Source of the DNA: Azolla caroliniana
Lineage: Eukaryota; Plantae; Polypodiophyta
Direction: 5' to 3'
Length of the DNA: 64,000 nucleotides
Assembly (NCBI GenBank): GCA_043228905.1
Contig: JBHGNT010000006.1
Coordinates: 9,424,001 to 9,488,000, forward strand
In this document: positions 1 to 12,420 of the stretch, piece by piece
Numbering within the stretch: position 1 is the stretch's first letter
How the letters are laid out: the number at the start of each line of letters is the position of its first letter
Made by a program: the position numbers and the translations under genes
The notes under the pieces: model-generated
The model's database searches: none
What the model saw: the letters and a program-made list of their open reading frames with translations, nothing else
What the model was told of the DNA's origin: nothing

Positions 1-613
1 AAGATGGCCAATCAATACAAATCACGGATGGAAGATTTGCTCAGCAACAAAGACTACGGAGGACTTGTACGGAGCTTATCCCAATGTTAAAGTCGCGATC
101 GGGGATGTGGAGATGGATCAACACTTCTTCGTGCTAGAATTGACGTCGCATCTTGTCCTCCTAGGACAACTGTATATCACATCATCTCGGATGGAGACCA
201 AAGTGTTCGATAATGGAGAAGCCTTCGCATGAATAAAGAGTCTTGACAACCAAAGATCTGTTCAATTCCTAATGGAGCGAGCTAATCATGAAAGAAATCG
301 AGATAGTCTTGGAGGCGAATCCTCGGATTTTTAGAGCGGACTATTGAAGCATGGGGCACAAATAGTCCGAGCGATCACAAGTCCCCACAAGAAAGAAGAG
401 CACATGGATTACGAGGAGAAGCAACATGTGTCACACCTAGTGGCACATGTAAACTAGTACTACCTGACAAGAAGGACAAGCTTCAGATACAAGAATTCGA
501 GAAGATGCTGAAAGAAGAAAACATAATAGAAGAAGAAGATTTCGTGACTCATATTATGGAAGAAGCCTCATTTAACGACACCATCGGCGAAATCGAGGAC
601 GTCGTGGACTTGA

Positions 614-3600
614 TTGAGCTATCTTCACGACCAACGCATGATTTCGGTTAACTCCGTCAACATGTACGCTATCATCGATGAATACCATCATGGCATCTTG
701 ATGGAGGAAGCTGAAGTTAACACAAAATATAAAATGGTGGATAAGAAGATCAAGCCAGTTGCGGTTCCGCTACCGGAAGATAGCTGGCAAAAGATGAAGG
801 AAGTCGCTAACGATCCAAGCTTAAGAGACCCAAAGACAATAGGTCATGTCTTCACCGAAGAGACGAAAAGAAAGTTACGAGTTGGAAAGGAGGATTTCCT
901 CCTCCCTGAAGAGGAGCGAAAGTTTTATGAAATGCTTGAAAGGCATGGGAAAGCCTTCATGTTCTCTCCCCAAGAAATCGGATGTGATGACCCAAAGATT
1001 ATAGAGCCGATTGTGATCTTCACGGTGCCGCATGTGCCTTGGAATTTGAAACCGATACTAGTTCCAAGAGTGCACCTTCCGAAGCTGATTGAGCTTTTAA
1101 AGGAGAAAGTGAATATGGGTATTCTAGAACCGTCGAATGCTCCTCACTCTAATAGGTGGTTCACGGTGCCGAAGAAGAATGGATCATTGCGATTCATCCA
1201 AGATCTTCAACCCGTCAACAAGGTGACAATTCGAAATGCTGGAATTGGTCCGAGCGTGGACAAATTTGCCAAGGCGTTTGCGGGCCGGTCCATCTACTCC
1301 ATTGGTGATCTCTACTCCGGATATGACCAATTCCAATTGGCGATCGACAATCGTGACATTACAACCATGAGGACTTTGATCGGGCTCGTGCGGATGTGTA
1401 CCTTACCTCAAGGTGCAACGAACTCAGTGGCTCATATGGTGAATGCCATGAACAAGGTCTTGAAGGATTGCATCTCGGACATCACGATGCCATTCTTGGA
1501 TGATATTCCGATAAAAGGATGTTCAGATGAGGAGAAAGATGAATCGAAAGATAAGGAAGGGTGTAGAAAGTTCATCATGGATCATATGAAAGATTGTGAG
1601 AAGGTGCTCCAAAGGCTTGAAGATGTGAATTTGACGTTTTTGAGAGAAAAATCCACATTCGGGCAACCATAGATCTTGGTGGTAGGTCACTTGTGTGGAG
1701 CATACGGCCGGAAGCCTTCACCATCCAAGGTGAACACGATCTAGGATATGAAAGAAGAATGTGTAAACCAAACAGAGGTTCGAAGGTTCCTTGGAGCATG
1801 CGCGTTTTATCATATCTGGATTCCGCACTATGCCCATGTCGCCGAGCCTTTATATGGATTGCTAAAGAAAAGAATGAAGTTCGAATGGCAAGACGAACAC
1901 ACAAACGCGATGCGAAAGTTGAAGAAACTACTTCTTGAAGCTCCAACATTAAGAAACGCCGACTATACCGAAGGGAAGCCGATTTATGTGACTGTCGATA
2001 TGAGTCCAACCGGAATCGGGTGGGTCATCAACCAAGAAGGAGAAGATAATGCGCAATATGTCATTCGGTTCGGAGCAAAGGTTCTCAGCGAACGACAACA
2101 AAGATACGCCGAAGTCAAGCGAGAACTTTAGGGTATTGTGTCGGCAGTGAAGACGGACAAAGATTACCTGATCGGATCGAAAGTAATAATTGAGACCAAT
2201 TGTCTCCCAATCCTTGGGATTATCTTAGGATGTGCGACACCAGATCTAGCTATGCTAAGGTGGATCGCCTATATCAAGTCTTTAAACCCAGAGATCCGCC
2301 ATATTGTAGGGAAGAAGAACGCCATGGCTGACATGCTGTCGAGGGCAAGATTTGAGAATGAAGGTGACATGGTTTTAGAAAATGAAGACGTCACCCTCGA
2401 CTTCTTCAAGATGGAGCCCTCCACTATAGGCGGAAGACAAGGGCACGCTAACCCTCCACGCCTTCAACGAGGACGAGTACGAAGGGGAGTGGTTACTAAT
2501 CGGCAGATTCCTAAGAATGATGACGACGGATGCTTCGTTGACGAAGGAGGAGGCCCTACGAATCCGGAAGAAACCAAAATGAAGGACACCCAAAAAGAAG
2601 GACAGGAATACCACGTCGAGTGGTGGTGAAGAAAGAAGAGCAAGTGACGCTAATGACCGAATTCCACAAGAGTCCCTGGGCAGGTCATAGAGGAACACGG
2701 GCGACGTTTGAGAAGTTGAAGGAGAAGTATTGGTGGCCAAGCATGTACAAAGATGTACTCCATTTCGTGTCCACATGCGAAACATGCCAAGTACATTCGA
2801 ATATCCGTCATCGTGATGAGCTATGACCGACATACCCGCTCACCATACACTTCAAATGGATGGTGGATCTGGTCTCAATGCCAATGGGAGTGGGACAAAT
2901 GAAGTACTTAGCTCTGGCAAGAGAAGACTTGACAAATCAAGTGGAAGGACGAGCCTTGACAAATAAAATGATGTTGGTTGTTTGCATATTTCTACTCAAA
3001 GAGGTTGTCTGTCGATACAGATGTGTAGGAAAGATAGTTGCCGACCGAGGGGAGTTGGATGCACACGAAGCAACGGAGCTCTTCGAACGACTAGGCGTGA
3101 AGCTCTCCCTCACGACTGCCTACAATCCAAAAGCACATGGAAAGATTGAGCGAGGGCATGGAACTATCGTCAAAACCATCGTGCGAGCATGCAACGGTCG
3201 AGTCGAGAATTGGCCACGACTATTGCCCTATGCCTTGTGGGCCGACAGAACGACACACAACTCGGTGACGGGGTATATGCCAACAGAGCTTATGTATGGA
3301 CAAAAGCCGGTAATGCCCATCGAAAGGACGATCGCCTCCTAAGTAGCGATACCATGGGAGAACGAGATGAGCTGAGAAGAGTTTTTAGTGGCACGGATAA
3401 GGCAACTTGAAAGGAGACCTGAAGATCTAGAAAAAGCGCGAAAGATGATGGAGGCAGCCCGAGTGAAGAACAAAATTCAGTTCGACAAGACGCATCGACT
3501 GCGTCCCAAGAAATCGAAGAAGGAGATTGGGTATTGGTCTACGACAACAGCCTTGACAATCAACACAGTACAACAAGGAATTTCGCAAGTAGATGGTTCG

Positions 3601-3800
3601 GACCATATATAGTGATATGTGCCAACGACAATGCAACATACCACCTTGCGGAGCTAGATGGATCAAGGCTGGCCATACCCATTGCCGGGAAAAGAGTAAA
3701 GATTTTTAAGAAAAGACAAGACGAGGATCCTGACCTCGATCATCTCGACGATGAAGGTAATAGTGCGGATGTGAATGAAGATGTGGAAGAATCTGATTAA
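614..3800 (+). pseudogene. pol: gypsy pol (RT-RNase H-integrase), fragmented
   Basis: ORF pieces 614-1672, 1748-2131, 2138-2629, 2620-2826, 2860-3342, 3388-3612 and 3534-3800 carry consecutive pol motifs separated by stops/frameshifts. Confidence 0.92.
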
Positions 3801-4909
3801 TCACCGTCGCCGAAATCTTGCACTCTCTCTTCTTGGCACGTACCGGAGGACATGCGGTTTGGTGGGGGTGGATGTCGTGAAGATTTTCGGCGATAGTGTG
3901 AAACTTGTAAGGAACATACGAAATCGAGCGTGGTTCTTCACACGAAATATAAACAATAATAGTAAATATACTATTTTAAATAAGTTTAATACCTCGGTAC
4001 AAAATGATGGAGGTCTTGAAGAGCTTCTGAATGTACTTTACTACATAGGAAACATACATCTAAGTGTCGAGTTATGTGGGTATAAAGTTTGCAAAGAAGA
4101 AGAGAAAAATATGTGATATCCCACATAGACAGGACAAATAAGGAACCCACCATATATAAGGCAGAGAAAAAGCTATTATCTTTGTGTTTATGTGTGGAGT
4201 ATAGAAAGGTTAAGTTGTATGACTTAACGAATGAATGTAGCCAAATGCACATAACTACGTATTTTGGACGAATCCGGTGGCGGCGATCGACGGTGACTGG
4301 TGACGACGACCGACGACGATCCTTGCATATTCAAAAGGAGTGCAAGTGAAGACTTGATCCTTGCACCTCCACATTGAGAGTCTATAGACTTACCACTAGG
4401 CTATGTCATTTCTTTAGAAATGTTTTCCCTATCATTATAGTTTTACATGTAAATTCTCATATTAGAGCTTAATTGAGTGAGATGTGATGCATGAGTGCCA
4501 AATGGCAAACATGCATCACATGCATTCCATGCATCACATGCATTCCATGCATTGTATGCATGTCTTGTACCCTCACATGCATCATATGCATGGGTGCGTT
4601 TTTAAGATTGCTTAAAGTGTGCGGAACTTCATCGAGGGTTGTTTGGGGTGGACTCAAGTTTAGATCTTATTTGTATGTCTAAACATAAGTAGTGATATAG
4701 TTTTAGAAGAATAGAAAAGTGAGGGCGTGGGTGGGGGTTAGGGGAGTGTAGCTTGTTGAAATTATCAAAAGTATTTAAACCTAATCAAAGTTTTTAGAAT
4801 ATATTAAAGATCATTGGGATAACTTAAGTTATTAGACAACAATAACGTACTATTAAAACACCAATATAGAGTATTATTAAAACGGGACCACACGCTTAGA
4901 TGAACGGGA

Positions 4910-5440
4910 GTTGTTTAAACACACGCTTAAGCAAACACTTAAAAGAAAGATTATTATAAAAAATAAAAATAAAAATAAAAATAGAAAAGAGAGATTGAGA
5001 TTAAAAAATGATTATGGTTAAGAAGGGATTATGATTAAGGGGGAAGGGGTTGCTAAACAAAGTACTTAAACGAATGTTTAAACAAATATTTAGATAAGAA
5101 AACACTTGGGCAAACACTTAACGCAAGGTTAGGATTAAAAGAGAAGGGAGGGATTATGGTTAAAGAAAAGGGGTCATGGTTGAGAAGAGAATGATTATGA
5201 TTAAGAGAGGAGAATACTTAAACAAAAAGTTAAACCTAAAAATGATTGAACAAGTACTTAAAAAAAAGGGGTTAAACAAGTACGTAATAAAAATGTTTAT
5301 TAAACAAGTACTTAATAGAAAATGATTAAATAAATGCTTAAAAACTTAAGACAAAATTTTTTTTGATAAAAAAGTGATTAAACAAGTACTTAATAAAAAT
5401 TTATTAAATAAGTACTTAAGAACTTAAGACAAAAAATTAG
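4910..5440. repeat. AT-rich degenerate minisatellite in the PLE 3' region
   Basis: TTAAACAAGTACTTAA-like units at ~5052, 5246, 5272, 5300, 5326, 5378 and 5404 (~26-28 nt spacing in the cluster), plus GATTATG(G/A)TTAAG units at 5010-5205. Confidence 0.75.
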
Positions 5441-5490
5441 ATAAGAGCAACACATAGAAGGAAAGAAAGTTTTACTATCATAAGGCAACG

Positions 5491-5536
5491 ATCGGCAAAT
5501 GCATTTCGCCTCGATGGAGGCTCTTCATTGCCCGAT
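5491..5536 (-). ncRNA. Minimal type I hammerhead-ribozyme-like motif (variant core)
   Basis: Minus strand reads ATCGGGCA-ATGAAGA-GCCTC-CATC-GAGGC-GAAA-TGCA-TT-TGCCGAT: stem I (one bulge), core with A in place of C3, 5-bp stem II, GAAA, palindromic UGCA stem III, AUU triplet. Sense to the PLE. Confidence 0.7.
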
Positions 5537-5698
5537 GTACAAATGATGAAAACTAAGCCTACTAGGTTGCTCTTTTTATAGGGAGAGGGAGGAGAGTCCT
5601 TTGTATGTGGGACATACAAAAGTGTGTACAAAGGGAAGGTACAAGAGTGTACACAAGACTTTAGGTGGGGGTTAAGAGGGGTGAGAGTGCATAAAACA

Positions 5699-7469
5699 TT
5701 AGGTGGGGGGAAAGGATGCGTGTACTAGGTGGTTTCTTAGTTTTTTACCATTTAGCCAACACGTGAGAGGGGGTGTAAGGGAAGTGTATTGTGGTTGTCC
5801 TAGAAGGGGTTTAAGTTTGTTTCTCACGAGCGCTCCGGTTTGGAGTTTTTTGATACATGGGGAGTATCGAAGCTTAAAAACAATGGGTGGAGGTTTTTTG
5901 TTGTTGGGTTGGTTAGAGAGTAGTTGGTTTCGTATGGAGTAGGGGACGGTCGAAAAACACTTGAGTAGGAACTTCGATGGGTAGCCCCTAGCTCTTAGGC
6001 GGTTGTAGAACTTTTTGCGTAGTTCCATGTAGCCATTTTCCGAGCTCTCCCGGATAGCATACCGTTTTAGTTCGCCCGTGATGAAGCCCTTTTTGTGTGC
6101 TATGGGGTGCGAGGATTTCCACGGGAGGTACATGTAGGCATTGAGAGGTTTTTGGTGGCATGTGGTGTCGAGGATGCCGAATTCTTTAAAGTATGGGCCT
6201 TTGAAGAAGTCGACGTCCAGGATGGTGATCTCTTTAGGGGAGGTTGTTGATTCAATACGGATGTGTTGTTGTAGAGGCACGCCGTATTGGTGTAAGAAGG
6301 TGTGAAGTGTATCGGGGGAACCTTCCCAAACTCCTATGGCATCATCGATGTAGCGTTTGTAGTAGAGTAGTTGCGGTGTTTGGAAAGCTAGGTTGTCGTC
6401 CTCTAGCTGCGAAAGAAACAAGCAAGCGTAAACAACCGCAAAATTACTACCCATCGCAGTGCCTTTAATTTGTAACCAAAAAGCATTATTAAAGGAGAGA
6501 AAATTGTTTCTAAGTATTAGTTCGGCAACACTCATAATGATTTTGGTTTTGTGGTGGGAAATGATGTGAAATAGATTTTTTAAAAACCAATAGACCTTCC
6601 GTGGTAGGTATACTGGGATATAGTGACACTACGTCAAAAGAAAACAACGTGCAAGTTTTGGGGAAGGTGTGGTGTGCTAGGTCCTTAACAAGTGTTAAGG
6701 AGTCTTTGAGGTGTTGTTTTTTAGACAATAAGACAAGATGTAATAGATGGTGTAGCCATTTAGAGGCTCTTTCGAAAACATAATTGTTGTAGGCGCAAAT
6801 AGGGCGTCCTACAACAATGGGCTTGTGGATTTTGGGGATGATGTAGAAACGACATATCCTGAAACCATGTTTGGGTTTCTGAAGGAGGAATCTAATTTCC
6901 TCATTGGAGAGGTGGGGGGAAGCTTTCAGACATAGGTGTTCAAGTCGACTGTGGAGAGTTTCTAGGGGGACGTCTTTGACGGGGGTGTAAGTGTTTTTGT
7001 CGTTGAGCTGTCTAAGGCATTCGTTAAGGTACCAATCCTTAGAGAGAATGCACGTGCCTAGATTTTTATCCGCGGGTTTAATAACTATGTCTTGATTTTT
7101 TTTGAGATTATGTAGTGCAGTTCTAAAGTTCCTATGAGGGCGAGGTTGGATGGTGGGTGGGGAGGGGAGGGCAGAGGTGATAGATGTGATGGTTTGTGTG
7201 ATTTCTGGGACGGCTGGGGGATTCCAACTGGGGTTCGGTATTCTAAATGGAGAGATAATGTTAGTAGAGTTTCTAAAGAAATATTTGAGGCGGTAAGTTC
7301 TATTGAAGGATACAACGGCATCTATCAATTGTTGTTTTCTAATAGGTTGGGGTGGGGGAATAAAGTCTAGACCTAAGCTTAGAAGTTTGAGTTGGGGTGG
7401 AGGAAGGTGGAAAGAGGAAAGGTTGTGCAATGAGTGATTAGTGATCCTATTCTCGAGCTGGGAGGGTGT
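5699..7469 (-). pseudogene. PLE reverse transcriptase (~590 aa when repaired; single +1 frameshift near 6545)
   Basis: N-terminal HNLSS..LLSLGLDFIP, IVIKPADKNLG, FYIIPKIHK, FDVVSLYPSIP, QIKGTAMGSNFA, YKRYIDD, ILDV and thumb YLPWKSSHP..ELKRY..LRARGYP. ORFs 6510-7430 and 5699-6535 join by removing one A from CACAAAACC. The frame is open up to the 7471 junction. Confidence 0.9.
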
Positions 7470-7471
7470 GC

Positions 7472-7697
7472 AATGTGTAAACCAAACAGAGGTTCGAAGG
7501 TTCCTTGGAGCATGCGCGTTTTATCATATCTGGATTCCGCACTATGCCCATGTCGCCGAGCCTTTATATGGATTGCTAAAGAAAAGAATGAAGTTCGAAT
7601 GGCAAGACGAACACACAAACGCGATGCGAAAGTTGAAGAAACTACTTCTTGAAGCTCCAACATTAAGAAACGCCGACTATACCGAAGGGAAGCCGAT
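7472..7697 (+). repeat. Exact 226-bp copy of gypsy pol 1758-1983 (templated filler)
   Basis: Base-by-base identical to 1758-1983 (AATGTGTAAACC...GGGAAGCCGAT). The same peptides appear twice in the ORF track. Confidence 0.95.
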
Positions 7698-7881
7698 CTA
7701 AAGTTAAAAGTACGATCTTATCTCTCTCACTCTCTATCTCTCTCTCGCCATCTCAATCTCTCTCCCTCAAACTATCTTAAATCCTTTCTCGCTAAAGCTA
7801 GTGGGTGCTTCAAGTCCTTCCGGTCCAGAACCCCGGCGGTTCCGCCTCACGATCTGCACATAGAGACGGATCTTCACGACA

Positions 7882-9274
7882 CCGGCACCGCTATTCGCGT
7901 CCGGTCAAGCTCCGCAAGATGGTAAGTACCGTTGTTGTTTGAGCTCGTTACGGTGTAGGGCCCGAATCACCTCCTTGCAAACTTCCACGTCGCTTTGTGC
8001 TGGTTGTCCAGGCTGTTGTCGTAAACCAGCACCTAGTCACCTTCCTTGATCTTCTTCGGTCGTAGCTGGTGGGTTTGGTCGAACCGGCCCTTGTTCTTTA
8101 TCCTTGCCGCGTACAGCTTTGCCTTCGCCCGCTCCACGTCCTCCGGTCTTCGTTCGAGCTGCCGAAAATGCGCCGCTAACAACTCTTCCCGACTCATCTT
8201 GTCTCTCCAATTCACCGCGGCCCATTTGGAGATTGTCCGTTCAATCGGCGTGATCGACTTCTCCCCGTACATCAGCTCTGTCGCCATGAACCCGGTTACC
8301 GAACTATGCGTACTTCGGTCTGCCCATAACGCGTAAGGCATAAGCCGCAACCAGTTCCCGATTTGTCCTCCGCATGCCCACACCAACGCTTTTATGATCC
8401 GCCCGTGCCCACGCTGTACCTTCTCGTTAGCCTTCGGGTTGTACGCCGTAGTGAGGGAGAGCCTAACCCGTAGTTGTCCAAACAACTCTTTTGCTTCCTG
8501 CACATCCAACTCTCCCCGGTCAACCACGATCTTCCCTACACACCCATATCAACATACCACCTCTTCGATTAGGAACGGGCACACAACTGCGGTCGTCTTG
8601 TTGGGCAATGTACGACCCTCCACTTGGTTCGTCAAGTCCTCTCGAGCAAGCACCAGGCACTGCATCTACCCTACCCCGATCAACATCGTCACTAAGTCCA
8701 CCATCCACTTGAAGTGGACGGTCGGTGGGTAGGTCGGGTGCAGCTCGTCTCGATGTCGGATCGCAGAGTGCAATTGGTAGCTCTCGCACGTTGTTACAAA
8801 CTGGTGCACGTCCCAGTACAACCTCGACCACCAATACTTCTCATTCAACTTTTCGAATGTGGCCCATGTCCCGTGGTATCCGGCCCAAGGAATCATGCTA
8901 CGCTGTCAACAAAGCCTCGTGCTCTTCCTTCCCTGCCACTACACGGAGTGGAATACCGCCTCTCTTTTTCGGGAGCTTCCATATGTCCCCGTCCTGCAGG
9001 AAGAATTGGTACGCCTTCTTCCGGATCCGGTTAGCTTCGTCTTCCATCCAGGCGGCGTCTGGCGTCATTGTCTTCAGGAACCTACTGATCTGGAGCTAGT
9101 CCTTGTTGTACTCACCGTCATTGAACTCGCTAAGCGCCGGAGTGCTCCTTGTCCTCGTCATCATGCAAGCCGACTCGAAGAAGTCCACGCCGACTTCTTC
9201 TTCCTCCGAAACCATGCCATCTTCGTTATCAAACCGCGCTCTTGAAAGCATGTCGGCCATGGCGTTGTCCTTCA
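7882..9274 (-). mobile_element. Second gypsy copy of the same lineage (RNase H end, zinc finger, integrase), decayed
   Basis: Minus-strand ORFs 8033-8527 (LSLTTAYNPKAN..ALWADRSTHSSVTG) and 8666-8896 (WAGYHGTWATFEKL..HFKWMVDLV); KDNAMADMLSRARF at ~9230-9272. Confidence 0.88.
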
Positions 9275-10590
9275 TGTTACCCGATCCTTTGGGTGAACAC
9301 CTTCGATAGACCTGCGGCTATCGGTATCCAAGGGTGTGGTACGTGAAGGCTCGTAACAGAGGCGTCGTGAGGAAGCAAATGATCAGAGCTAAAACACTAG
9401 CGAGATCTTGATAGGCGTGGGCGGCGCTGAAATCATAAGTATGAGCCAAAGCACAGAAACATGGAGCAAAAATAGGCACAAATAAGATATATTACTACAA
9501 CACCAAAAGGATTACAGAACACGGCCTACGGCCGGTGACCTTACAGGATTATCTAGTTACGATGGACTAAGCTAGTGCTTCCGCCTATATTTTCTGCTCT
9601 CGCTCTGAGGTACTGAACCTCGTTTAAATACGTTTCCCCTAATACACAACCGAGCCATCGGTGGCCCGTGATACTCGGACTCGGCGCTCGCTGGAGTTCT
9701 TTCCTACTCGGTTACACTACCGCCGTTTGCTAATTTCCTAATTCTATATTTCTGTCCTCTGGACACCACCTGGCACGCCCGTGGGACAGGACCTTGTCTG
9801 TCGGACCCACGACTTACAAAATACTAACAACATTACAAAAATTGCCTTTTAAGCGTGATCCTCGTTTCATTCCTCTTCTAAGATGTTGAGGATGTTTTCG
9901 GGGTCCGGGGTGCTGGCAGGGTGATCTGGTTGGACTGTCGGTGCGGGGGGTTGAGTTTGGTCTGGGGGTGTCATATCCTCTCGGGCGTCCACCTCAGGTG
10001 CGACCAATTCTTCTAGTGGTGGTGTGGGTTGGAGGGCACTAACCTCTACTTCGACTGGATCTGGTACCGTGTGGGCGTCCTCGGGAGGTCTATTGGCCGG
10101 GGCGAGTTCCTCCTGTGCCGTGTCCGTGATCTCCTCGCTGGGAGGTTCTTCCTTCTGCTCTGTGGCCATTGGAGGGCTGGTTGGGATGGCTGCGAGTCGT
10201 TCTCGTTCTCAGGCTTCTGCTTCCAAGCGAAACAACATCTGATCGTCATTGAAGTCCTCCAGCATTTGCTCGATTGTCGCGGTGTGAGATTTTGCCCAGG
10301 ACTGATAATCCTCGGTTAAATCTGCACGGAGGTTTTGTATGCTGGCTTCATCCATTTTGTAAAAGCCGCGTCCCTCCTTCCGTCGGTTCTCGGTGTCGGC
10401 GCGTAAAATATGCAATTCGGCAGCTTGGGCTGCCCATTCTTCTCCTGCGCGACTTAATGTTTCCTCGACCTTTTTGGTGAGATGTTGGCACATAAAACAT
10501 CCAAAAGTAACTAAGTTACAATGCGTTGGTTTATATACCAACTAAGCTAGGGCAACTGCCCTTTCTACTATTTACAAAACTAGCCCAACA
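9275..10590. mobile_element. Fragment of an unclassified LTR element: ~490-bp LTR (9275-9765), tRNA-Arg-complementary motif (9771-9787), minus-strand non-pol ORFs
   Basis: TGTTACCC...TCTGGACA ends; TGGCACGCCCGTGGGAC next to the LTR; acidic/Pro-rich ORFs 9867-10169 and 10209-10541 on minus. Orientation and right boundary uncertain. Confidence 0.5.
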
Positions 10591-12420
10591 TGTCCATGAG
10601 TTAGTGTGAAACCTATCTCTGGGAAGTTGAGTTCAACTCTCAACACGCCCCTTCGAACACAACTTCTATCTGTCAAGAAGGTTGTTCGGTTCGTACTTCA
10701 ACTTGTCTAGTAAGTTGCGTTGCAAGCTCGCATACTCGATCAAGTGCGTATGTGTTGCGTATCGTTGCGTATTGCTTCCATGTCGCCGGTACCTGTACTC
10801 CCCATCAAGTTCGGCAATGTAGATGTCATGAGACCAAGGTCCAATGCAATTTGCCCGAGCTTGTCAACTCCTAAGGCCTTCGTAAAGGTATCAGCAACTT
10901 GGAGGTGCGTACTGGTATGTTGTAGATCGATCTCGCCGGCTTGTACGCGCTCGCAGATGAAGTGGTAATGCAGTTCGATATGTTTAGTCCGCGCGTGGGA
11001 GACGGGGTTCTGCGCCAAGTAGATACTGCTCATGTTGTCGCAGTAGAGATGAATTGGATCCTTGATGGGAACGCCCAGATCCTTTAGTATGCATTTAAGC
11101 CATACGACTTCGCATGCGGCGACTGCTGCGCCCCTATATTTGGCTTCCGTGCTCAATAGTGCGACTGTTGGTTATTTCTTGCTACTCCAAGAGATTGCTC
11201 TGCTGCCGAGGGAGAAGAAAAATCCAGAGGTGGATCGTCTATCTGCATTTTAGCCTGCCCAGTCGGCGTCGGTGTACCCTTCGAGTCGAATAGTCGTGTT
11301 CGACTTATACATGATGTTGTAAGCCATTGTCGTACTGACATATCGTAGTATCCTCTTAGCACAATAAAGATGAAGGTTTCGCAGATTCTACATGAATTGG
11401 CTAAGTAGGCCGACCGAATAACCGAGGTCGGGTCACGTAATGGTTAGATACGGAGTTGGCTCGCTCTCAGCGGTTCCGGAATTGGCATCAATCTTTAGGT
11501 TACGATCGAGAGGGGTAGACATAGGCTTGGACTCAGTCATTCCAAACTTGTAGAGTAAGTTGAGGATGTAGTGCCGTTGTGAGATCATTATCCTGACTAT
11601 TGTTCGAATTACTTCAATGCCTAGGAAGTAATGGAGTTCGTGCAAGTCTTTCATTTCGAATCGTCCGGGGAGAAGTGTTTTGACTTTGTTGATCTCGACG
11701 AGATCCTTTCCTCCAATGATCAAGTCATCCACGTATAGGATGCTTATGATCGGGCTATCCGACTCATTTCGGATGTATTGAGAAGTATCGGATTTTGACA
11801 TCTGAAATCCAACTTGATGAAGATACCGCGTGATCTTCGAATGCCAAGCACACGGTGCTTGTTTGAGGCCGTAGAGTGGCTTCTTGAGTCGGCATACGAT
11901 GTACGGATGTTTACGCAATTCGAATCCGGGTGGTTGTATCATGTACACCTCTTCTTCTAACTCTCCTTGGAAGAAAGCATTTTTCACGTCCATCTAGTGA
12001 AGGTGCCATCCCTTCGCTGCTGCGAGTGCAATTATTGTCCGTACAGTTGTCATCTTTGCCACCGGGGCAAAGGTTTCTTCGTAGTCTATGCCATGTGTTT
12101 GCGCGTAGCCTTTCGCAACGAGCCGTGCTTTGAAGCGATTTACGGATCCGTCGGCATTGTATTTTACTTTGTATATCCATTTGTAGCCAATCGCTTTCTT
12201 GTTCGGGGGGAGAGGAACAAGATCCCATGTCTCGTTTTTGCATAAAGCTTCCATCTCCTCATTCATCCCGTCGACCCATCACGAATCCTTTGCGGCTTCG
12301 GAAAGCGTTTCCGGTTCCTGTACTGATGCTACTTTCATCATAAAAGCATAGTGATACGCCATGTACTCGTCATAGCCGTAGCGGTTTACGGGGTTCTTTT
12401 CACGTGTGGATCGGCGTAGC
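10591..12420 (-). mobile_element. Ty1/copia family B fragment (RT, RNase H, PPT, start of 3' LTR at 10645)
   Basis: [39 protein letters not shown]; minus-strand GAAGGGGCG|TGTTGAGAG boundary at 10645. Confidence 0.9.

What the first reader, a model, noticed from the sequence alone, without database searches (positions are those of the whole stretch)
5491..5536. Minimal hammerhead-ribozyme-like fold with a non-canonical core downstream of the PLE RT
Seen (minus, sense to the RT, 163 nt after the stop): AUCGGGCA/UGCCGAU stem I, AUGAAGA, GCCUC-CAUC-GAGGC stem II, GAAA, palindromic UGCA, then UU. Known: PLEs carry minimal type I hammerheads whose short palindromic stem III allows dimeric cleavage. 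Here the conserved C3 of CUGANGA is A and the triplet is AUU, so standard motif searches would miss it. Inference: it processes PLE RNA ends, or it is a copy disabled by one mutation.
Basis: partly seen in the sequence, partly recalled or inferred. Interest (0 to 1): 0.8.

Follow-up and report, generated by a model that had tools for sequence, protein, structure and literature searches.

The report
Broken hammerhead in plant Penelope retrotransposon
This is an ordinary hammerhead motif (a likely self-cutting RNA) in the tail of a truncated, frameshifted Penelope-type jumping gene, likely of a plant; its odd letter is not shared by the close relatives and likely disables this one copy rather than marking a new kind of ribozyme.

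Summary
The motif is real, at 5536-5491 (minus), and beyond chance (0 of 200 shuffles). It is a type I hammerhead with a palindromic helix III, 163 nt behind the RT of an endonuclease-less Penelope-like element. The 'non-canonical core' does not hold for the family. All 19 contigs covering position 5528 in four DNA runs read C3, and so do 6 of 6 close loci. The A is one of about 20 substitutions private to this 5'-truncated, frameshifted copy. It breaks the C3-G8 pair and is predicted to pair over the cleavage site, so this copy likely does not cut. U17 (AUU) obeys the NUH rule and stands in 19 of 20 canonical relatives. Rfam misses the C3 copies too. Intact family members likely cleave as dimers; this was not tested. 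One feature is worth keeping: copies end 650-900 nt beyond the cut site, at a conserved hairpin module, in two loci beside a telomere-like stretch. The cut therefore does not set the cDNA end, and copies were likely made from uncut or re-ligated RNA. Known kind (EN-minus plant PLEs with hammerheads, as in Selaginella); low interest.

The parts
5491..5536 (-). Type I hammerhead motif, stems I-III, likely inactive in this copy
5528..5528 (-). Core position 3: A here, C in the close relatives
   Evidence: 19 of 19 contigs, 4 runs; 6 of 6 loci
5508..5521 (-). Stem II (5 bp, G10.1-C11.1) with 4-nt loop; the loop varies, the stem does not, in L001-L006
5499..5504 (-). Palindromic helix III (AUGCAU); ACCGGU in the 47%-identical family L007/L008; predicted dimer helix
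5497..5498 (-). Predicted cleavage site after U17 (triplet AUU)
   Evidence: plus standard hammerhead numbering (PMC3884650)
5699..7469 (-). Telomerase-like RT (ORF2) without GIY-YIG domain; 5'-truncated at about 7469; 2-nt deletion frameshift near 6554
4598..7469 (-). Whole PLE copy (2.87 kb); lacks ORF1 and the slippery site that full copies carry
5238..5422 (-). Degenerate AT-rich repeats of about 54 nt in the 3' UTR
4598..4690 (-). Conserved 3'-terminal module: long hairpin, A/C-rich linker, short motif, AAAAAC; copies diverge right behind it; likely RT recognition and priming site
7472..7700 (+). 229-nt copy (99.6%) of window 1758-1986 (LTR-retrotransposon RT/RNase H region) fused to the 5' truncation point

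Best explanation
The motif is the conserved type I hammerhead in the 3' UTR of an endonuclease-less Penelope-like retrotransposon, and its A at core position 3 is not shared by the close relatives and is likely a mutation acquired after insertion that likely disables this truncated, frameshifted copy. In intact copies (C3) the ribozyme likely cuts after AUU only when two motifs pair through their AUGCAU palindromes, as in head-to-tail tandems. The cut would release unit-length RNA from read-through transcripts. Reverse transcription likely starts 650-900 nt further downstream, at a separate hairpin module, and this copy was copied straight through the ribozyme, so its template was uncut or re-ligated RNA. 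Shown: letters, C3 in the relatives, pairing and covariation, broken state of the copy, position of the 3' ends. Inferred: cleavage, dimers, priming site, loss of activity by A3.
For: C3 at full depth in 4 of 4 runs, 19 of 19 contigs (at most 4 samples, 3 studies, four organism labels) and in 6 of 6 loci at 79-98% identity. With positions 3, 7, 8 and 17 free, a scan of all 80 loci gave 23 hits: 20 C3-G8, all sense and downstream of the RT match; 1 sense C3-A8; 2 weak antisense hits; no A3-G8. Contigs of other subfamilies align only over 5493-5532, the ribozyme core (table 8). 58 of 58 cells pair, 3 pairs change on both sides, slid controls reach 30-47%. The copy has 23 substitutions against both L001 and L002 (3 in a homopolymer tract) and a frameshift; at that rate a hit in 13 core bases has a chance of about 0.11. 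[quoted passage not shown] A3 is predicted to pair with U16.1 (0.61) or U17 (0.37), while C3 has no partner above 0.05; this resembles the 3-17 trap discussed in PMC3884650. An active-like dimer scores -30.3 kcal/mol against 2 x -13.6 for monomers. The RT's three best fold matches are telomerase. Full copies have two ORFs and an A_AAA_AAC site. L004 holds a head-to-tail tandem.
Against: No cleavage data and no RNA data. Contigs drop rare variants, so a single-copy mutation cannot be told from an assembly error. Covariation rests on 5 distinct rows, and all 3 double changes come from one family (L007/L008); stem II never varies in that set. The active-like dimer is 3 kcal/mol above the best dimer fold. 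The mutagenesis data come from a type III ribozyme. 60 of 80 loci gave no canonical hit (mostly distant relatives, often short contigs; L076, 46% identical, ends without one). PLE hammerheads cleave weakly in vitro even as dimers (PMC4209133).
Confidence: 0.85

Rival explanations
1. The A at 5528 is a sequencing or assembly error and the locus carries C.
For: No contig of four runs shows the A. The 2-nt deletion near 6554 lies in a CA-rich context where long-read errors occur (error pattern recalled).
Against: About 20 other private substitutions are spread over the copy, and 2 more fixed differences lie in the same 421 nt (5642, 5689), which fits ordinary ageing. Contigs of a repeat family are expected to drop single-copy alleles.
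Confidence: 0.08
2. The family keeps the hammerhead fold as a structural or protein-binding signal and cleaves little or not at all in vivo.
For: Copies are reverse-transcribed through the site. Helix III cannot close in a monomer. Low in vitro activity and an unknown role are reported for PLE hammerheads (PMC4209133, PMC7761336).
Against: All catalytic core letters are kept in 8 of 8 loci of two families 47% apart in protein, and helix III stays palindromic through a double change, which the dimer model predicts.
Confidence: 0.05
3. A3 defines a working natural core variant or an active subfamily.
For: Natural core variation exists in PLE hammerheads (U3-A8, PMC4209133). Rare variants can be lost from contigs.
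Against: No compensating change at G8; 0 of 19 contigs, 0 of 6 close loci and 0 of 80 loci with A3-G8; the copy is truncated and frameshifted; mismatches at 3-8 show low activity (PMC9901934).
Confidence: 0.02

Closest known systems
Type I hammerheads of EN-deficient PLEs of Selaginella moellendorffii (Cervera and de la Pena 2014, PMC4209133)
   Same: Type I, sense strand, 3' of an EN-less PLE RT, all three helices. The window's family falls in one clade with Selaginella, Cryptomeria and Ginkgo proteins (25 rows, SH-like 99).
   Different: Another family (45-46% amino-acid identity). This copy has A3. The Selaginella letters are in a figure that is not held, so no letter-level comparison was made.
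Palindromic-helix-III type I hammerheads of metazoan PLEs and non-LTR retrozymes (PMC4209133, PMC6765202)
   Same: Short palindromic helix III, G10.1-C11.1, predicted dimer-dependent cleavage, tandem arrangement (L004).
   Different: No bulged base between A9 and G10.1 in this family; helix III present (not the min-HHR form); the element is autonomous in full copies.
Athena / Coprina / Terminon EN-minus PLEs (PMC8557442, PMC6431247)
   Same: No GIY-YIG domain, ORF1 set off by a likely frameshift, telomerase-like RT, hammerhead, short reverse-complement telomeric stretch at the 3' end in L003 and L004, head-to-tail tandems.
   Different: In Terminons the telomeric stretch lies immediately behind the hammerhead. 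Here the end lies 649-900 nt behind the cut site, after a separate hairpin module; this copy and L005 lack the telomeric stretch, and this copy sits among LTR elements.
Rfam Hammerhead_1 (RF00163)
   Same: Same topology and core; the distant relative L009 reaches 34.8 bits.
   Different: Neither the window nor the C3 loci L001-L008 reach a listed score.

Membership tests
Type I hammerhead ribozyme | Three helices round the core, strand ends in helix I | tested here: met
   (58 of 58 cells paired in L001-L008)
Type I hammerhead ribozyme | Core CUGANGA with a Watson-Crick 3-8 pair, this copy | tested here: not met
   A3 faces G8: a degenerate member
Type I hammerhead ribozyme | Core CUGANGA with a Watson-Crick 3-8 pair, the family | tested here: met
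   19 of 19 contigs, 6 of 6 close loci
Type I hammerhead ribozyme | GAAA, G10.1-C11.1, A15.1-U16.1, NUH triplet | tested here: met
   NUH rule in PMC3884650
Type I hammerhead ribozyme | Rfam RF00163 score at or above the gathering value | tested here: not met
   no hit at E up to 10 in window 1-12000 or at E up to 1 in L001-L008
Type I hammerhead ribozyme | Self-cleavage | not testable with these tools
   no assay; no raw RNA reads
Dimer-cleaving PLE hammerheads | Short palindromic helix III | tested here: met
   AUGCAU in 6 loci and the window, ACCGGU in 2 loci
Dimer-cleaving PLE hammerheads | A second motif in the same transcript | tested here: inconclusive
   only one motif in the window; L004 shows a head-to-tail tandem but its contig ends before the second motif
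min-HHR (Cervera and de la Pena 2014) | No helix III beyond the conserved bases; bulged base after A9 | tested here: not met
   a 4-nt palindromic insert is present and there is no bulged base
Penelope-like elements | Telomerase-like RT | tested here: met
   model pLDDT 95; TERT holds ranks 1-3 and 9 of the first 10; by sequence profile TERT is weak, E 0.14; DKN stands at the place of the DKG motif (motif from PMC8557442)
EN-minus PLEs (Coprina-like, plants) | No GIY-YIG endonuclease | tested here: met
   ORF2 ends after the thumb; no GIY-YIG hit in L001 ORF1 or ORF2, while the control P0059 gives one
EN-minus PLEs (Coprina-like, plants) | ORF1 separated by a frameshift signal | tested here: met
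   overlapping ORFs in the -1 relation and A_AAA_AAC followed by GGGG in L001-L004 and L007; frameshifting itself is inferred; the window copy lacks this part
EN-minus PLEs (Coprina-like, plants) | Reverse-complement telomeric stretch next to the hammerhead | tested here: inconclusive
   CCCTAAAC at the 3' end in L003 and L004, absent in L005 and the window, and 760-860 nt from the cut site
EN-minus PLEs (Coprina-like, plants) | Placement in the Coprina clade against reference RTs | not tested
   the tree holds no curated Coprina or Athena references, only named Selaginella, Cryptomeria and Ginkgo proteins

The most novel reading that the evidence does not exclude
This plant EN-minus PLE family separates the two jobs that Terminons place side by side: a dimer-dependent hammerhead cuts unit-length RNA that is then circularised, and a separate conserved hairpin module 650-900 nt downstream, next to a telomere-complementary stretch, serves as a telomerase-RNA-like internal priming site. 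Copies that run through the ribozyme and head-to-tail tandems would be footprints of reverse transcription on an RNA circle. The spacing would make the open question of what PLE hammerheads do directly testable.
Probability: 0.25. Interest if true: 0.55.

Novelty: new member of a known kind. Interest (0 to 1): 0.17.

Why it matters
As filed it matters little: hammerheads in EN-minus plant PLEs have been in print since 2014, and the odd base belongs to one dead copy. The family is still a handy test case. It is repetitive and has intact two-ORF copies, and its ribozyme and 3' end lie far apart, so circular junction reads or 5'-OH ends at one predicted site would show whether PLE hammerheads cut and ligate in vivo, which PMC7761336 calls a mystery.

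Tried and rejected
No whole genome is held, so no genome-wide copy count was possible. Rfam: 3 chance hits in window 1-12000, 1 hit in 10 loci (L009), 0 in 8 distant loci. Pfam gave nothing on the two window RT pieces; the single-sequence PDB search gave nothing. No RNA holder listed. The second read-laying was swamped by a very high-copy repeat at 4470-4594; it showed PLE contigs starting at 4599-4602 but not what other copies carry beyond. Alignments A3-A5 were out of structural register and were not used for counts; A6 holds 8 of the 20 canonical loci (L001-L008). One search had the 3-8 pair set one column off and was redone. The first tree did not finish; one search is FastTree on 46 rows (36 of 120 proteins, 10 of 80 loci). 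The descriptor demands pairing and a canonical core, so its pair counts and C3 count are by construction; only strand, position and U17 versus A or C are free there. Rejected: chance fold; a second (pLTR) hammerhead in the window; a true TSD for the 229-nt duplicate (it does not flank both ends); a twister, pistol or second hammerhead in the 3' module (no Rfam hit, no GAAA). Four key papers were not held (Gladyshev and Arkhipova 2007, Arkhipova 2017, Lunse 2017, Lin 2016). A search for a measured C3A hammerhead gave nothing relevant.

Full report
Observation. The ORF above it stops at 5699. A type I descriptor with a free position 3 finds only this site in the window; 200 shuffles gave 0.04 relaxed hits per window and none as good. 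A covariance model from eight relatives, without the window, gives 62.1 bits here and at most 12.2 elsewhere, so there is no second hammerhead of this family in the window. Stability alone is not unusual (z -0.96).

Position 3 in the family. Contigs of four DNA runs (at most 4 samples, 3 studies, four organism labels) were laid on 5380-5800. At 5528 all 19 contigs, at full depth in each run, give C on the minus strand. Six metagenome loci at 79-98% nucleotide identity all have C3. A scan of all 80 loci with positions 3, 7, 8 and 17 free gave 23 hits: 20 with C3-G8, all sense and downstream of the RT match, one sense C3-A8, two weak antisense hits and no A3-G8. Sixty loci gave no canonical hit; most are distant (about 30% identity) and many are short. 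Contigs drop rare variants, so this shows that A3 is not a family trait; it cannot tell a single-copy mutation from an assembly error.

The triplet. U17 satisfies the NUH rule (PMC3884650, introduction). It stands in 19 of the 20 canonical hits, AUU in all six close loci. It is a family trait, not an anomaly. Rfam misses the window but also the C3 loci L001-L008, and finds only the distant L009 (34.8 bits).

Structure. On alignment A6 (8 loci, 5 distinct rows) 58 of 58 cells pair; two stem I pairs and one helix III pair change on both sides; slid controls reach 30-47%. All double changes come from the L007/L008 family (47% amino-acid identity), where helix III reads ACCGGU and is still a palindrome; stem II does not vary in this set. 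Contigs of other subfamilies align only over 5493-5532 and turn loose on both sides, so the core is a conserved island. A monomer cannot close helix III; an active-like dimer scores -30.3 kcal/mol against 2 x -13.6, though 3 kcal/mol above the best dimer fold.

The copy is dead. Against L001 it spans 7469-4670 at 98.2%. It has 23 substitutions against both L001 and L002 (3 in a homopolymer tract) and a 2-nt deletion near 6554 that breaks the RT frame. At this rate a hit in 13 core bases has a chance of about 0.11. It lacks about 2 kb at the 5' end. C3 pairs with G8 in the active fold (PMC3884650). In pairwise mutagenesis of a type III hammerhead, all single and double mutants of this region had low activity except the swap to G-C (PMC9901934, passages). 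Here G8 is unchanged, and A3 is predicted to pair with U16.1 or U17 (0.61 and 0.37). Loss of activity is inferred, not measured.

The element. Full copies have a long ORF1 and an overlapping RT ORF in the -1 frame, with A_AAA_AAC and a G run in L001-L004 and L007. The RT model (pLDDT 95) matches telomerase best (ranks 1-3); by sequence profile the link is weak. No GIY-YIG domain is found. Named homologues come from Cryptomeria, Selaginella and Ginkgo and form one clade with the family (SH-like 99; no curated references). L004 holds a 5'-truncated copy followed head-to-tail by the start of another. This fits EN-minus PLEs as described in PMC8557442 (passages) and PMC9033089 (passages). Hammerheads in Selaginella PLEs, dimeric cleavage and the circular-template proposal are in PMC4209133 (abstract, results and discussion read) and PMC6765202 (passages). 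Earlier notes of this scan call the host a fern; I did not test that.

Where copies end. The window copy runs on 900 nt beyond the predicted cut, to 4598. Just before that lies a module shared with L003-L005: a long hairpin (z -5.3 and -6.7 in L004 and L005, -1.7 in the window), a short motif and AAAAAC, behind which all four diverge. L003 and L004 carry CCCTAAAC there, the window and L005 do not. Distances from the cut site are 649, 763, 855 and 900 nt. In Terminons the telomeric stretch follows the hammerhead immediately (PMC6431247, passages). Internal initiation is shown for an EN-plus PLE (PMC11167929, part 1 of 4). Since this copy is continuous through the ribozyme, its template was uncut or re-ligated. 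L007 and L008 have no such module by my pattern. I found no paper on it in searches, but four key papers were not held, and figures and supplements of PMC4209133 and PMC8557442 (hammerhead lists) were not seen and may already hold this family. PMC7761336 and PMC6155905 were seen as passages, bioRxiv 10.64898/2026.07.22.740005 as part 1 of 5.

Verdict. A real hammerhead of a known kind, in a decayed copy. The non-canonical core is a private change. Interest 0.17; what remains lies in the distance between the ribozyme and the 3' end.

Noticed in passing
window 7472-7700 and 1758-1986: A 229-nt, 99.6% identical copy of a nearby LTR-retrotransposon stretch is fused to the PLE's 5' truncation point in the same orientation as its source; likely a templated insertion during break repair, or an assembly artefact.
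   Followed up: partly
window 4598-4690; L003 about 4760-4865; L004 4663-4765; L005 2324-2410: Conserved 3'-terminal module (long hairpin, short motif, AAAAAC, telomere-like stretch in two loci); no Rfam match; likely priming signal.
   Followed up: partly
window 5408, run X12: One contig leaves the PLE 3' UTR into letters that look like the 5' end of 18S rRNA (recognised from memory, no call); one contig only.
   Followed up: no
window 4470-4594: A short repeat of very high copy number (summed depth up to 460,000 against 2,000-6,000 for the PLE in run X9) abuts the PLE's 3' end and is cut there.
   Followed up: no
L014, L027, L028, L044, L046, L049, L052, L055, L063, L072: Distant PLE-like loci carry a type I hammerhead with a long helix III, a bulged A after A9 and U17, 750-2640 nt behind the RT match; Rfam found none of the 7 canonical ones tested.
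   Followed up: partly
L069 2595: A hammerhead of that distant group with C3-A8, another likely decayed core.
   Followed up: no
L001 1546, L003/L004 1603, L007 1765: Conserved slippery heptamer with a G run and a predicted downstream helix between ORF1 and the RT ORF.
   Followed up: partly
window 614-3800 (+), 8033-8548 (-), 10740-11993 (-): Broken LTR-retrotransposon remnants flank the PLE: RVT_1, RNase H and integrase on the left, RVT_2 on the right.
   Followed up: no
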